64,000 nucleotides of DNA from Escherichia coli 042 (lineage in GTDB: Bacteria > Pseudomonadota > Gammaproteobacteria > Enterobacterales > Enterobacteriaceae). This document shows positions 161-61,906 of this stretch, in pieces. A model generated the notes under the pieces. The model saw only the letters and a list, made by a program, of their open reading frames with translations. It made no database searches and was not told where the DNA came from. The stretch lies in assembly GCF_000027125.1 (NCBI RefSeq), contig NC_017626.1; one strand, written 5' to 3'. Numbering within the stretch: position 1 is the first letter of the stretch; every line of letters starts with the position of its first letter. Position numbers and translations under genes: made by a program.

Positions 161-1588
161 TTATTTCGTGTTTTTCGACGACGGCAATTCAATGCGGAAG
201 CAAACGTCTTGCCCGCTCTCGTCGACCAGATACAGTTCCCCTTGCATACGGCGAATACAATCCCTGGCAATGCTTAATCCCAGACCGCTGCCCTTCACCG
301 CCCCTTTTCGCTGGTGGCTTCCCTGAAAAAAGGGTTCAAAGATCATGGCGCGTTCCTCTTGCGGAATGGGTGTGCCTGTATTGATGACATCAATATAAAC
401 CCGCGCGCCATGTAAACTGCTGCGAAGGCAAATGTTACCGGATTCAGTCCCGTAGTGCACAGCATTGGAGTAAAGATTATCCAGTACGCTCATCAGCAGC
501 ATTGGCTCCGCCAGGCAAGCTGTTGCTTGGAGATCGACGTCGGTATGCATCATTTTAGCCCGTGCGGGCAGGCTATGAGCAGAAACTACTGTCTCCACCA
601 GCGGTGCTAATTCAACATTCTCCAGTTCCACCGCACTGTCCGCCTGTTTACGGTTGTAATCAAGCAGTTGTTCGATCAGTTTTTGCAAATTGCGGCTGCT
701 GCTATCGAGGATGCTCACCACCTCTTTTTGCTCTGGCGTAAGCGGCCCGACAACCTGGTCAGCCAGTAATTCAGTGCCCTCGCGCATACTTGCCAGCGGC
801 GTTTTTAATTCATGAGATAAATGTCTTAAGAATTGATGACGTTGGGATTCCAGCCATGACAGGCGCTCACTTAACCAAAGAATACGTTGCCCAACCGAGC
901 GTAACTCGCTCGGTCCACTGAACGAGACACTATTGCCCAGAGAACGCCCTTCCCCCAGCCGGTTGATCATGCGCTCGATATTTTTCACCGGACCGATAAT
1001 CATCCTCGTGAAAAGTAGCACCATCACCAGACTCACCAGAAATAACACCAGCGATTGCCAACCAAAATATTGCCCACGTTCGGCGATTTCACGCTGAAGT
1101 TGCTGCCCACGAGAGAACACCACTGTGCGCGTGGCCTGCACCATTTCGGTATTGGCACTGGCAAAGGCTTCAAGACGCGCGGCGGCGGCGGCATCGGGAC
1201 CACTGTTGTTACACTGAAGTTGGGCCAGATTGTTCAAGTCCTGACGCAATGCCTGGTAAAGTTTATCGTCTGGCAGTACGCCTGCGTGGGCATCGAGCAT
1301 TTCGCTGTAACGCTTGCGCTGGCTTTGATAAACCTTCGCAAGCGTAGGGTCGTCCAGCACGCAATACTGACGGTAGCTACGCTCCATCTCCAGTGCCGCG
1401 TTGGTCATCGCTTCACTACGCCGGGCATCAATAAGCGTAGTGCGGTTAACCAGCGCCGCCTGATCGCTAAGTGCATTCAGGCTTTGCCAGGCTTGCCATG
1501 CCAGCACCAACAGGGGTAGCAGAATCAGCAAAAATGCCAGCATTACCAGTTGTCGTAATGAGCGGGGAAAAACGGGCCAGCGTTTCAA
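161..1588 (-). CDS. glrK: Sensor histidine kinase GlrK (QseE)
   Basis: ORF 161..1651 translation recognised (transmembrane N-terminus, HELKTPLASM H-box, ATPase domain). Start trimmed to TTG at 1588 (..TLKRWPVF..), giving 475 aa. Confidence 0.85.
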   Translation of the reverse strand: MKRWPVFPRSLRQLVMLAFLLILLPLLVLAWQAWQSLNALSDQAALVNRTTLIDARRSEAMTNAALEMERSYRQYCVLDDPTLAKVYQSQRKRYSEMLDAHAGVLPDDKLYQALRQDLNNLAQLQCNNSGPDAAAAARLEAFASANTEMVQATRTVVFSRGQQLQREIAERGQYFGWQSLVLFLVSLVMVLLFTRMIIGPVKNIERMINRLGEGRSLGNSVSFSGPSELRSVGQRILWLSERLSWLESQRHQFLRHLSHELKTPLASMREGTELLADQVVGPLTPEQKEVVSILDSSSRNLQKLIEQLLDYNRKQADSAVELENVELAPLVETVVSAHSLPARAKMMHTDVDLQATACLAEPMLLMSVLDNLYSNAVHYGTESGNICLRSSLHGARVYIDVINTGTPIPQEERAMIFEPFFQGSHQRKGAVKGSGLGLSIARDCIRRMQGELYLVDESGQDVCFRIELPSSKNTK

Positions 1589-2066
1589 GGTGTTACTCTC
1601 GTCAGACGCGAATAGCCTGATGCTAACCGAGGGGAAGTTCAGATACAACAAAGCCGGGAATTACCCGGCTTTGTTATGGAATAAGGCGGTGCCTAACTCG
1701 ACGTTTCGCCCGATGGTTGATATAGCTACGCTGATATCAGAAGTTGGACGGCAGGCACCTTGTTGTGCGTCATTCGAATTTTATGTAGCACGTCCCGAAG
1801 GGGCTGACATAAGTCGGTGAATGAGCCACTGGTTACTATTATGCAGTAACTGTGCCAATAAAGAAAATAGTTTGGTAACGTACTGATTATACGCCGCTTT
1901 GAGGGATTTATGGCTTCTTCGCTATTTGAATGTAAATCAGCCACTGTGTCGCTAAAAAGAGACAACTTAAGATAAACTTATTAGATAATATTAAAATCAA
2001 TAAGTTAAATGTCGCCAGAAAGCGACACGGCACACCACCCATTGTCGTGATTTACAGACACAAAAA

Positions 2067-6307: not shown

Positions 6308-8409
<2,102 letters not shown>

Positions 8410-36025: not shown

Positions 36026-36070
36026 TCACAACCCCGTCCTGTACGGGGTTTGTTTTTTGGAGGCCACGTT

Positions 36071-36394
36071 TTGCGTATTCTTTTTGTCTGCTCGCTATTG
36101 TTACTTTCTGGATGCAGCCATATGGCTAACGATAGCTGGAGCGGGCAGGATAAAGCTCAACACTTTATCGCCTCGGCGATGCTTTCCGCCGCCGGAAATG
36201 AATATGCACAGCATCAGGGGATGAGTCGCGATCGCAGTGCCACTTTCGGGCTGATGTTCTCTGTTGGGCTGGGCGCGTCAAAAGAACTTTGGGATAGCCG
36301 CCCCGAGGGGAGCGGCTGGAGCTGGAAAGATTTTACCTGGGATGTCGCCGGTGCAACTACCGGCTATACCATCTGGCAACTGGCGCATCACTAA
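36071..36394 (+). CDS. yfiM: Lipoprotein YfiM
   Basis: ORF 36050..36394; likely TTG start at 36071 after a GGAGG RBS; lipobox LLSGCS. Confidence 0.75.
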
Positions 36395-49594: not shown

Positions 49595-49625
49595 AAGGCC
49601 TCCCAAACCGGGGGGCCTTTTTTAT
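49595..49625 (+). terminator. pheA attenuator terminator
   Basis: aggcctccc-aaacc-ggggggcct hairpin followed by TTTTTTATT. Confidence 0.8.
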
Positions 49626-49647
49626 TGATAACAAAAAAGGCAACACT

Positions 49648-59753: not shown

Positions 59754-60545
59754 ATGCCCGTTTTTGCTCTGCTCGCGCTTGTCGCCTACTCCGTCAGTCT
59801 TGCGCTGATTGTTCCCGGTCTGCTGCAAAAAAACGGCGGCTGGCGGCGCATGGCTATTATTTCTGCGGTCATCGCGCTGGTCTGCCACGCAATCGCTCTG
59901 GAAGCCCGCATCCTGCCCGACGGTGATAGCGGACAAAACCTCAGCCTGCTGAATGTTGGTTCATTGGTCAGTTTGATGATCTGTACGGTAATGACCATTG
60001 TAGCTTCTCGCAATCGTGGCTGGTTGCTGCTACCCATTGTCTATGCCTTTGCGCTTATCAACCTGGCGCTGGCGACCTTCATGCCCAATGAATACATCAC
60101 CCATCTGGAAGCTACGCCTGGGATGCTGGTGCACATTGGCTTATCGCTCTTTTCCTATGCCACGCTGATTATCGCCGCCCTGTACGCGCTGCAACTGGCG
60201 TGGATTGATTACCAACTGAAGAACAAGAAGCTGGCGTTTAACCAGGAAATGCCGCCATTGATGAGTATCGAGCGTAAAATGTTCCACATCACACAGATTG
60301 GCGTGGTGCTGCTAACGCTCACTCTTTGCACTGGCCTGTTCTACATGCACAACTTATTTAGCATGGAAAATATCGACAAGGCCGTGCTCTCTATCGTGGC
60401 GTGGTTTGTCTATATTGTGCTGCTGTGGGGACATTATCATGAAGGATGGCGTGGACGCCGCGTCGTCTGGTTTAACGTTGCGGGTGCAGTCATTCTGACA
60501 CTGGCCTACTTCGGCAGCCGAATTGTCCAGCAGTTAATCAGCTAA
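59754..60545 (+). CDS. ypjD: Inner-membrane protein YpjD (cytochrome c assembly family)
   Basis: ORF 59679..60545; start trimmed to MPVFALLALVAYS (263 aa); multi-pass membrane protein. Confidence 0.8.
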   Translation: MPVFALLALVAYSVSLALIVPGLLQKNGGWRRMAIISAVIALVCHAIALEARILPDGDSGQNLSLLNVGSLVSLMICTVMTIVASRNRGWLLLPIVYAFALINLALATFMPNEYITHLEATPGMLVHIGLSLFSYATLIIAALYALQLAWIDYQLKNKKLAFNQEMPPLMSIERKMFHITQIGVVLLTLTLCTGLFYMHNLFSMENIDKAVLSIVAWFVYIVLLWGHYHEGWRGRRVVWFNVAGAVILTLAYFGSRIVQQLIS

Positions 60546-60589
60546 ACCCAGAAAAGGAGTTTCCCCTGGAACACATTTCTACTACTACG

Positions 60590-61852
60590 TTGATCATTAT
60601 TCTGATCATCATGGTGGTCATTTCAGCCTATTTTTCCGGGTCCGAAACCGGAATGATGACTCTCAACCGCTATCGTCTGCGACATATGGCGAAACAGGGT
60701 AATCGCTCGGCCAAACGCGTCGAAAAATTGCTGCGTAAGCCAGACCGCCTGATTAGCCTGGTGTTAATCGGCAATAACCTGGTCAATATTCTTGCCTCCG
60801 CGCTCGGCACTATTGTTGGGATGCGTTTGTACGGCGATGCGGGCGTGGCAATTGCGACTGGTGTGCTGACTTTTGTCGTACTGGTTTTTGCTGAGGTATT
60901 GCCGAAAACCATTGCCGCGCTGTACCCGGAAAAAGTCGCTTATCCGAGTAGTTTTCTGCTGGCTCCGCTGCAAATTTTGATGATGCCGCTGGTCTGGTTG
61001 CTGAACGCTATTACCCGCATGTTAATGCGCATGATGGGCATCAAAACCGATATCGTGGTCAGCGGCTCTTTGAGCAAAGAAGAGTTGCGCACTATCGTGC
61101 ATGAATCGCGCTCACAAATTTCCCGTCGCAATCAGGATATGCTGCTGTCGGTGCTCGATCTGGAAAAAATGACCGTTGATGACATCATGGTGCCGCGCAG
61201 TGAAATTATCGGTATTGATATCAACGATGACTGGAAATCGATTCTGCGCCAACTCTCCCACTCACCTCACGGGCGCATCGTGCTCTACCGTGATTCGCTG
61301 GACGACGCCATCAGTATGCTGCGAGTACGTGAAGCCTGGCGGTTGATGTCGGAGAAAAAAGAGTTCACCAAAGAAACCATGCTGCGCGCCGCGGACGAGA
61401 TCTATTTTGTGCCTGAAGGTACGCCGCTCAGCACGCAGTTGGTAAAGTTTCAGCGCAACAAAAAGAAAGTCGGCCTGGTCGTCAACGAATACGGAGACAT
61501 TCAGGGGCTGGTGACGGTTGAAGATATTCTGGAAGAGATTGTCGGCGATTTCACTACCTCGATGTCGCCAACACTTGCCGAAGAGGTCACGCCGCAAAAC
61601 GACGGTTCAGTGATTATTGATGGCACCGCCAACGTGCGGGAAATCAACAAAGCCTTTAACTGGCATCTACCGGAAGATGATGCCCGCACTGTTAATGGCG
61701 TCATTCTTGAGGCACTGGAAGAGATCCCGGTCGCGGGCACCCGTGTACGTATTGGCGAGTACGACATCGACATTCTCGACGTACAGGACAATATGATTAA
61801 GCAGGTAAAAGTTTTTCCTGTGAAACCGCTGCGCGAGAGTGTGGCGGAGTAA
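60590..61852 (+). CDS. yfjD: CNNM/CorC-family membrane protein YfjD (DUF21-CBS-CorC_HlyC)
   Basis: 420-aa ORF as in the track (TTG start); an upstream in-frame CTG at 60566 with an AAGGAG RBS would add 8 aa. Confidence 0.82.
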   Translation: MIIILIIMVVISAYFSGSETGMMTLNRYRLRHMAKQGNRSAKRVEKLLRKPDRLISLVLIGNNLVNILASALGTIVGMRLYGDAGVAIATGVLTFVVLVFAEVLPKTIAALYPEKVAYPSSFLLAPLQILMMPLVWLLNAITRMLMRMMGIKTDIVVSGSLSKEELRTIVHESRSQISRRNQDMLLSVLDLEKMTVDDIMVPRSEIIGIDINDDWKSILRQLSHSPHGRIVLYRDSLDDAISMLRVREAWRLMSEKKEFTKETMLRAADEIYFVPEGTPLSTQLVKFQRNKKKVGLVVNEYGDIQGLVTVEDILEEIVGDFTTSMSPTLAEEVTPQNDGSVIIDGTANVREINKAFNWHLPEDDARTVNGVILEALEEIPVAGTRVRIGEYDIDILDVQDNMIKQVKVFPVKPLRESVAE

Positions 61853-61859
61853 CGAAAAC

Positions 61860-61883
61860 GGCCCTGCATTCGCATGCAGGGCC
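61860..61883. terminator. Bidirectional terminator between convergent yfjD and grpE
   Basis: Perfect cggccctgcat-tcg-catgcagggccg hairpin. Confidence 0.75.
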
Positions 61884-61906
61884 GTGAATTATTACGAAAA
61901 CAGAAA

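What the first reader, a model, noticed from the sequence alone, without database searches (positions are those of the whole stretch)
60553..60592. Non-ATG initiation candidates: yfjD (CTG vs TTG), and TTG starts for tadA, glrK and yfiM
For yfjD the ORF begins at TTG 60590 with no obvious RBS, whereas an in-frame CTG at 60566 is 6 nt downstream of AAGGAG, so the N-terminus may be 8 aa longer (LEHISTTT..). Similar situations: tadA TTG at 8364 after GGAG, glrK TTG at 1588, yfiM TTG at 36071 after GGAGG. The ORF-track extended starts are probably artefacts, and the true starts matter for signal-peptide and topology prediction.
Basis: seen in the sequence. Interest (0 to 1): 0.25.

Follow-up and report, generated by a model that had tools for sequence, protein, structure and literature searches.

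The report
Known CTG start codon of yfjD
The E. coli membrane-transporter gene yfjD really does begin at a rare CTG codon behind a strong ribosome-binding site, and tadA, glrK and yfiM begin at TTG, but all four starts are already in the curated E. coli K-12 annotation, so the finding is correct and ordinary.

Summary
AAGGAG (60554-60559) lies 6 nt before an in-frame CTG (60566). The TTG at 60590 has no ribosome-binding site. The TTGs at 8364(-), 1588(-) and 36071(+) are as described.

RefSeq and MG1655 annotate yfjD as 428 aa from this CTG. EcoGene 3.0 reports that start-codon mutagenesis confirmed the CTG, while mutating TTG codon 9 had no effect.

My comparison of 79 Enterobacteriaceae species agrees. 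Codon 1 is always CTG, TTG or GTG. Codon 9 is an ordinary Leu codon and cannot act as a start in 22 species. Codons 2-8 show 306 third-position changes against 5 at positions 1 and 2.

The tadA, glrK and yfiM TTGs equal the curated starts. They are backed by published tetracycline ribosome profiling (tadA, yfiM), a mapped transcription start (glrK) and orthologue DNA. The longer ORF-track starts fall in a -10 promoter box (tadA) or in terminator T-tracts (glrK, yfiM).

One mildly new point emerged. Across species, CTG goes with a full AAGGAG motif and TTG/GTG with weaker motifs (75/79 concordant), which suggests compensation.

The parts
60543..60545 (+). ypjD stop codon TAA, 20 nt upstream of the yfjD start. 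No terminator or promoter match lies between the two genes.
60554..60559 (+). Shine-Dalgarno AAGGAG for yfjD, with a 6-nt spacer to the CTG
   Evidence: dG -8.2. It is conserved at a fixed distance in 79 species.
60566..60568 (+). CTG (CUG) initiation codon of yfjD/corB
   Evidence: Curated and RefSeq annotation. EcoGene 3.0 mutagenesis. In 79 species this position is CTG 36 / TTG 30 / GTG 13.
60566..61852 (+). yfjD CDS, 428 aa plus stop. It is a CNNM/DUF21 + CBS + CorC_HlyC transporter, identical in protein sequence to K-12 WP_010723175.1.
60569..60589 (+). Codons 2-8 (EHISTTT), the N-terminal tail before TM1. This stretch is coding: across 79 species there are 306 third-position changes against 5 at positions 1 and 2.
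60590..60592 (+). TTG, an internal Leu9 codon (the former annotated start). It has no SD.
   Evidence: dG +2.4. In 22 of 79 species it is CTC/CTA/CTT/TTA. Mutating it had no effect on expression.
60611..60613 (+). ATG, internal Met16. Automatic gene callers that disallow CTG wrongly use it as the start, which truncates TM1.
   Evidence: P0241, P0243, P0255
7861..8364 (-). tadA CDS from TTG 8364, 167 aa plus stop
   Evidence: TetRP reads were 47/57/30 at the TTG against 0/0/0 at the old ATG, and an N-terminal peptide was found. Orthologues have TTG or GTG here.
8373..8376 (-). GGAG Shine-Dalgarno of tadA, 8 nt before the TTG. GGAGT is conserved in six genera.
8395..8401 (-). TATAATG: a perfectly conserved -10-like hexamer whose last bases form the spurious extended ATG (8397) of tadA
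   Evidence: The ATG is out of frame in 3 of 6 genera.
161..1588 (-). glrK (qseE) CDS from TTG 1588, 475 aa plus stop
   Evidence: The TTG is invariant in six genera. The transcription start is 25 bp upstream.
1648..1651 (-). Extended in-frame TTGs (first bases 1651 and 1648; codons span 1651..1646). They are the T-tract of the glmY terminator, not starts.
36059..36063 (+). GGAGG Shine-Dalgarno of yfiM, 7 nt before the TTG
   Evidence: dG -9.3
36071..36394 (+). yfiM CDS from TTG 36071, 107 aa plus stop. It is a lipoprotein with the lipobox LSGC.
   Evidence: Orthologues have GTG or ATG at this position.
36050..36052 (+). Extended TTG inside the T-tract of the pssA terminator, an ORF-track artefact

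Best explanation
yfjD (corB, a CNNM-family Mg2+ transporter homologue) is translated from the CUG at 60566.

Mechanism (inferred from general knowledge of bacterial initiation): the 30S subunit is positioned by the strong AAGGAG Shine-Dalgarno 6 nt upstream. Initiator fMet-tRNA then reads CUG with a first-position mismatch, giving a 428-aa protein that starts fMet-EHISTTT before TM1. The TTG at 60590 is simply Leu9. CUG initiates at only about 1-2% of AUG efficiency, so the strong SD, and possibly coupling to the ypjD stop 20 nt upstream, compensate to give a low, fixed output.

Their longer ORF-track forms are artefacts of in-frame triplets inside a promoter -10 box or terminator T-tracts.

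Shown: the codon identities, their conservation and the published experiments. Inferred: the compensation, the coupling and the expression set-point.
For: yfjD:
- Annotation starts at this CTG in K-12 W3110, MG1655 and four other strains.
- EcoGene 3.0 (PMC3531124) states that start-codon mutagenesis with protein fusions confirmed the CTG. Mutating TTG codon 9 had no effect.
- In 79 species, codon 1 is CTG 36 / TTG 30 / GTG 13, so it is always start-capable and switches between Leu and Val codons. Codon 9 is CTG 50 / CTC 11 / TTG 7 / CTA 6 / CTT 4 / TTA 1.
- Codons 2-8 show 306 third-position differences against 5 at positions 1 and 2, and EHISTTT is identical in 74 of 79 species.
- SD dG is -8.2 before the CTG and +2.4 before the TTG.
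- Distant CNNM homologues align to the 428-aa form with N-terminal offset 0 in 41 of 110 and within 1 in 61 of 110. Only 3 of 110 have an offset of 7-9, which is what the TTG start would predict.
- CUG efficiency of 1-2% of AUG comes from Hecht et al..

tadA:
- TetRP reads sit at the TTG and not at the ATG, and an N-terminal peptide was found.
- Orthologues have TTG or GTG with a conserved GGAGT.
- The upstream ATG lies within a conserved TATAAT and is out of frame in 3 of 6 genera.

glrK:
- The TTG is invariant in six genera.
- The upstream region carries indels, while downstream changes are synonymous.
- The transcription start is 25 bp upstream.

yfiM:
- TetRP supports the TTG.
- Orthologues have TTG, GTG or ATG at this position, and the lipobox is conserved.
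Against: - The EcoGene mutagenesis is cited there as unpublished data, so I could not see the primary result.
- I found no ribosome-profiling or N-terminal peptide record for YfjD itself. Supplements searched had nothing.
- The motif alone is not statistically unusual.
- glrK has only a weak SD (-3.4), and I found no direct initiation data for it.
- The TetRP signal for yfiM is weak (0/16.7/2.3).
- Translational coupling to ypjD is untested. In some genera (Raoultella, Intestinirhabdus) the ypjD stop is not within 40 nt of the start.
Confidence: 0.93

Rival explanations
1. The TTG at 60590 (the older annotation) is the true yfjD start, giving a 420-aa protein. On this view the upstream CTG/SD pairing is coincidental.
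For: It is the first canonical start in the open frame. The bare AAGGAG-N-CTG motif occurs at chance frequency. The Pfam CNNM domain starts at residue 11 of the long form, so either start would keep the full domain.
Against: There is no SD (dG +2.4). The codon cannot act as a start (CTC/CTA/CTT/TTA) in 22 of 79 species. The eight upstream codons evolve as coding sequence. Mutating the TTG had no effect on expression.
Confidence: 0.02
2. Dual or conditional initiation. The CUG is the main start, but a shorter isoform arises from TTG9 or ATG16 under stress. One route would be MazF cleavage at the ACA sites at 60571-60575, which would remove the SD and the CUG.
For: The MazF-regulon paper lists yfjD with a cleavage 17 nt upstream of its start codon. 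That fits ACA at 60571-60575 measured from the old TTG. TTG at codon 9 is found in the Escherichia lineage and only a few others (7 of 79).
Against: Neither TTG9 nor ATG16 has an SD. Mutating the TTG had no effect under the conditions tested. A start at Met16 would truncate TM1. The specialised-ribosome model behind the MazF-regulon idea is, to my knowledge, disputed.
Confidence: 0.04
3. For tadA, glrK or yfiM, the longer ORF-track form (178, 496 or 114 aa) is the real protein.
For: The frames are open. For tadA the upstream codon is an ATG, it is conserved in all six genera, and RefSeq uses it for Salmonella and Trabulsiella TadA.
Against: tadA: there are zero TetRP reads at the ATG, the ATG is part of a conserved TATAAT, it is out of frame in 3 of 6 genera, and it has no SD (+0.2). 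glrK: the extended TTGs are the glmY terminator T-tract and lie upstream of the mapped transcription start. yfiM: the extended TTG lies in the pssA terminator T-tract and is absent from orthologues.
Confidence: 0.02

Closest known systems
yfjD (b4461, UniProt P37908) CTG start, as curated by EcoGene / GenBank U00096 and RefSeq WP_010723175.1
   Same: It is the same gene, codon and protein. The window's YfjD is 100% identical in amino acids to the K-12 protein, and the annotated start coincides with 60566.
   Different: Nothing of substance. The window strain differs from K-12 by 25 synonymous nucleotides in the gene.
[quoted passage not shown]
   Same: It is a rare CUG initiation codon in a low-abundance E. 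coli protein, recognised through conservation and the ribosome-binding site and then tested by mutagenesis.
   Different: It is a different gene and protein family, and I did not examine the hda locus here.
AUU starts of infC and pcnB (non-canonical E. coli starts)
   Same: They are near-cognate codons read by the initiator tRNA at about 1-2% of AUG efficiency.
   Different: In infC the AUU underlies IF3 autoregulation (my knowledge). No regulatory role is known or shown for the yfjD CUG.
Start-site re-annotations from tetracycline-inhibited ribosome profiling (Nakahigashi et al. 2016, PMC4909307)
   Different: yfjD and glrK are not in that table, which lists only starts that differ from the 2006 annotation.

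Membership tests
Genes initiated at a non-AUG near-cognate codon (CUG) | The near-cognate codon is in frame, downstream of the in-frame stop and upstream of any canonical start | tested here: met
   The in-frame stop is at 60473, the CTG at 60566 and the first canonical start at 60590.
Genes initiated at a non-AUG near-cognate codon (CUG) | A Shine-Dalgarno sequence lies at 5-9 nt | tested here: met
   AAGGAG with a 6-nt spacer and dG -8.2. It is conserved in 79 species.
Genes initiated at a non-AUG near-cognate codon (CUG) | Orthologues carry only start-capable codons at this position, and these interchange irrespective of the amino acid encoded | tested here: met
   CTG 36 / TTG 30 / GTG 13 in 79 species.
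Genes initiated at a non-AUG near-cognate codon (CUG) | The codons between the candidate and the next canonical start evolve as coding sequence | tested here: met
   306 third-position differences against 5 at positions 1 and 2.
Genes initiated at a non-AUG near-cognate codon (CUG) | Expression is lost when the codon is mutated, or an initiation peak or N-terminal peptide is seen | not testable with these tools
   EcoGene 3.0 reports the mutagenesis result as met, citing unpublished data. I found no profiling or peptide record for YfjD.
CNNM / CorB (HlyC/CorC) transporters | CNNM (DUF21) transmembrane domain, CBS pair and CorC_HlyC domain | tested here: met
   Pfam PF01595 (residues 11-184, E 8e-54), PF00571 and PF03471.
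TTG-initiated genes (tadA, glrK, yfiM) | A conserved start-capable codon and SD are present, while the upstream sequence is non-coding, out of frame or carries indels in orthologues | tested here: met
   tadA: TTG/GTG with GGAGT, and the ATG is out of frame in 3 of 6 genera. glrK: TTG in 6 of 6 genera. yfiM: TTG/GTG/ATG.
TTG-initiated genes (tadA, glrK, yfiM) | Experimental initiation signal at the codon | not testable with these tools
   Published TetRP supports tadA strongly (with an N-terminal peptide) and yfiM weakly. For glrK I found only a mapped transcription start 25 bp upstream.
Bacterial lipoproteins (YfiM) | An N-terminal signal peptide ending in a lipobox L-[AST]-[GA]-C | tested here: met
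   [14 protein letters not shown]|C is produced only if translation starts at TTG 36071. The lipobox is conserved in 13 orthologues.

The most novel reading that the evidence does not exclude
Across Enterobacteriaceae, the yfjD/corB initiation region seems to switch repeatedly between two equivalent configurations. One is a weak CUG start with a full AAGGAG Shine-Dalgarno. The other is a stronger UUG or GUG start with a weakened AAGGA[A/C/T] motif. No species has AUG.

This would be a clean natural example of compensatory co-evolution that holds the translation initiation rate of a membrane Mg2+ transporter at a low set-point.

Evidence: 32 of 36 CTG species carry AAGGAG or AGGAGG, against 0 of 43 TTG/GTG species. 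Mean SD dG is -8.1 for CTG against about -6.0 for the others. The NJ gene tree implies about 9 start-codon switches and about 8 SD switches. The 75/79 concordance was never reached in simulations of independent evolution on that tree, where the maximum was 63.

Caveats: the two sites are 7-12 nt apart and fully linked, the tree is a single-gene NJ tree, and no expression was measured.
Probability: 0.5. Interest if true: 0.3.

Novelty: already known. Interest (0 to 1): 0.12.

Why it matters
Correct start codons fix the N-terminus, and the N-terminus sets topology and targeting.

- For YfjD, the CTG start leaves TM1 intact with a short tail before it. Automatic gene callers that disallow CTG begin at Met16 and cut into TM1 (P0241, P0243, P0255).
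- For YfiM, the TTG start restores a lipoprotein signal peptide that the old ATG start removed.
- For TadA, it defines the 167-aa protein (N-terminus [11 protein letters not shown]), which to my knowledge is the form used in adenine base editors.

All of this is already in the curated E. coli K-12 record, so the finding has no discovery value. Its practical use is as a reminder that public databases still carry mis-started orthologues. Examples are truncated YfjD calls and the 183-aa Salmonella TadA, which starts inside a -10 box.

Tried and rejected
- Chance test of the bare motif AAGGAG-N5-8-CTG: 1 observed against 1.18 expected. The motif alone proves nothing.
- RNA folding of 60526-60625: no significant structure (z -1.67). 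I dropped the idea of a regulatory hairpin around the SD and CUG.
- Promoter and terminator scan between ypjD and yfjD: nothing found. This is consistent with an operon but is not proof.
- Direct initiation or N-terminal data for YfjD: Meydan et al. has no supplements held. The TetRP tables lack yfjD and glrK. Giess et al. and the Salmonella riboproteogenomics paper returned no hits. The Kim et al. transcription-start tables returned no hits.
- Pfam domain boundary as a discriminator: the CNNM model starts at residue 11, so it is compatible with both starts.
- ATT at 60575 as an alternative start: the SD would be 15 nt away, so I rejected it.
- A first MAFFT run on the 80 CDS timed out. I replaced it with an ungapped register check.
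- One protein look-up (Klebsiella TadA, P0047) had no contig on record.

Full report
**What the window is.** It is an E. coli chromosome segment running from glrK through glmY, purL, mltF, tadA, pssA, yfiM, rrnG, ffh, ypjD, yfjD and grpE to nadK. It is 99.8% identical to several complete genomes over 30-42 kb. It is collinear with MG1655 2.687-2.752 Mb.

**Observation.**
- The ypjD stop TAA (60543-60545) is followed by AAGGAG (60554-60559), the spacer TTTCCC, and an in-frame CTG (60566).
- The first canonical start in the frame is TTG 60590, eight codons later. The in-frame stop upstream is at 60473.
- Predicted pairing with the 16S 3' tail is -8.2 kcal/mol before the CTG and +2.4 before the TTG.
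- The other three sites are also as stated. tadA has TTG at 8364(-) after GGAG. glrK has TTG at 1588(-). yfiM has TTG at 36071(+) after GGAGG.
- The ORF-track extended starts are glrK TTG 1651, tadA ATG 8397 and yfiM TTG 36050.
- The bare motif AAGGAG-N5-8-CTG is not rarer than chance, with 1 found against 1.18 expected. The sequence pattern alone is therefore only a lead.

**yfjD: what is known.**
- RefSeq annotates yfjD as 1287 nt (428 aa), which means it starts at this CTG. This holds in K-12 W3110, MG1655 and the four other strains I opened. Those include strains whose yfjD DNA is only 93-96% identical to the window.
- The EcoGene 3.0 paper (PMC3531124) says the CTG start was predicted from conservation and the ribosome-binding site. 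[quoted passage not shown]
- In the same experiments, mutating the previously annotated TTG at codon 9 had no effect. The paper calls this the second confirmed CTG start in E. coli K-12, after hda.

**yfjD: independent comparative test.** I fetched the locus from 79 Enterobacteriaceae species.
- Codon 1 is CTG in 36 species, TTG in 30 and GTG in 13. It is never ATG and never a codon that cannot start. It switches between Leu and Val codons, as only a start codon would.
- Codon 9 is CTG 50, CTC 11, TTG 7, CTA 6, CTT 4 and TTA 1. This is an ordinary Leu codon, and it cannot initiate in 22 species.
- Codons 2-8 differ from the window at 306 third positions but at only 5 first or second positions. 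EHISTTT is identical in 74 of 79 species.
- More distant CNNM homologues (35-50% identity) align to the 428-aa form with an N-terminal offset of 0 in 41 of 110 and within 1 in 61 of 110. Only 3 of 110 show the offset of 7-9 that a TTG start would predict.
- Those distant homologues begin with a similar M-[DENT]-x-[ILV]-[PS] tail.
- The Pfam CNNM domain starts at residue 11, so domain boundaries do not discriminate between the two starts.

**Mechanism.**
- Shown: the codon, the SD and the conservation, plus the reported mutagenesis.
- Inferred from general knowledge: the initiator tRNA reads CUG with a first-position mismatch under IF3 scrutiny.
- CUG gives about 1-2% of AUG output, against 10-100% for GUG and UUG (Hecht et al.).
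- No RNA structure and no promoter or terminator separates ypjD from yfjD. Coupling to ypjD termination 20 nt upstream is therefore plausible but untested.

**A mildly new observation.**
- Across the 79 species, a full AAGGAG or AGGAGG accompanies 32 of 36 CTG starts and 0 of 43 TTG/GTG starts. Mean SD dG is -8.1 against about -6.0.
- On an NJ gene tree the start codon changes about 9 times and the SD class about 8 times, in the same places.
- Simulated independent evolution on that tree never reached the observed 75/79 concordance; the maximum was 63.
- This suggests compensation that holds a low expression set-point.
- The sites are tightly linked, the tree is from a single gene, and no expression was measured.

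**tadA.**
- The curated start is this TTG, giving 167 aa.
- TetRP (PMC4909307, Table S2) lists tadA as re-mapped to a TTG 33 nt downstream of the 2006 ATG. Reads were 47/57/30 at the TTG against 0/0/0 at the ATG, and an N-terminal peptide matched the new start.
- In six genera the position is TTG (4) or GTG (2), with a conserved GGAGT upstream.
- The upstream ATG is the end of a perfectly conserved TGTGTATAATGC, which contains a -10-like TATAAT. It is out of frame in 3 of the 6 genera.

**glrK (qseE).**
- The curated start is this TTG, giving 475 aa.
- The TTG is invariant in six genera. The sequence upstream diverges with indels. Downstream, KRWPVFPRSLRQLV is conserved with synonymous changes.
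- The extended TTGs at 1651 and 1648 are the T-tract of the glmY terminator.
- Göpel et al. (PMC6075780) place the qseEGF transcription start 25 bp upstream of the start codon. They also note that QseE is nearly undetectable, which fits a TTG with a weak SD.

**yfiM.**
- The curated start is this TTG, giving 107 aa.
- TetRP moved the start 51 nt upstream to it, on a weak signal.
- Orthologues have GTG (Salmonella) or ATG (Enterobacter, Kosakonia, Pluralibacter) at this position.
- The former ATG at codon 18 is CTG in Salmonella.
- Only the TTG start yields the conserved lipoprotein signal peptide and lipobox.
- The extended TTG at 36050 lies in the pssA terminator T-tract.

**Verdict.** Interest is low. 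The only item beyond the record is the covariation between SD strength and start codon.

Noticed in passing
In the MG1655 annotation of this region, 61 CDS use ATG 53, TTG 5, GTG 2 and CTG 1. Four of the TTG genes (glrK, mltF, tadA, pgpC) lie within about 8 kb.
   Followed up: partly
window 8395-8401 (-); loci L087, L091 near 10001: The in-frame ATG upstream of tadA is part of a TATAAT hexamer that is conserved in six genera. RefSeq models for Salmonella (183 aa, a cluster of 1091 members), Trabulsiella and Kluyvera TadA start at that ATG, so they are probably over-extended annotations.
   Followed up: partly
window 60300-61900: The ypjD-yfjD stretch is at most 98.9% identical to any of 5,426 complete E. 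coli genomes, whereas 30-42 kb of the same window is 99.8% identical to some of them. yfjD DNA varies from 91.8% to 98.8% identity among the E. coli strains I compared, yet the protein is essentially invariant: 75 nt and 0 aa differences against strain UID2404240036. This points to strong purifying selection with high synonymous or recombinational diversity.
   Followed up: partly
window 60611; proteins P0241, P0243, P0255: Public gene-caller products for E. coli-like yfjD begin at Met16 (MVVISAYF...). CTG is not an allowed start for those callers, so the products lose half of TM1.
   Followed up: yes
window 60571-60575: The MazF-regulon paper (PMC5001579) lists yfjD with a cleavage 17 nt upstream of its start. 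That fits the ACA sites inside codons 2-4 if it is counted from the old TTG, and such a cut would remove the SD and the CUG.
   Followed up: no
window 49604-49626 (+): Among 48 long ORFs, this is the only other non-canonical upstream candidate with a strong apparent SD.
   Followed up: yes
window 59679 vs 59754 (+): The ypjD ORF-track start (ATG 59679, 288 aa) is longer than the curated 263-aa protein (ATG 59754). This is another extended-ORF artefact next to the finding.
   Followed up: no
window 36071-36394: The window's YfiM is only 91% identical to the main E. coli/Shigella cluster (2242 members) but 98% identical to a small E. coli cluster (65 members). This is unusually divergent for a 107-aa core lipoprotein.
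   Followed up: no
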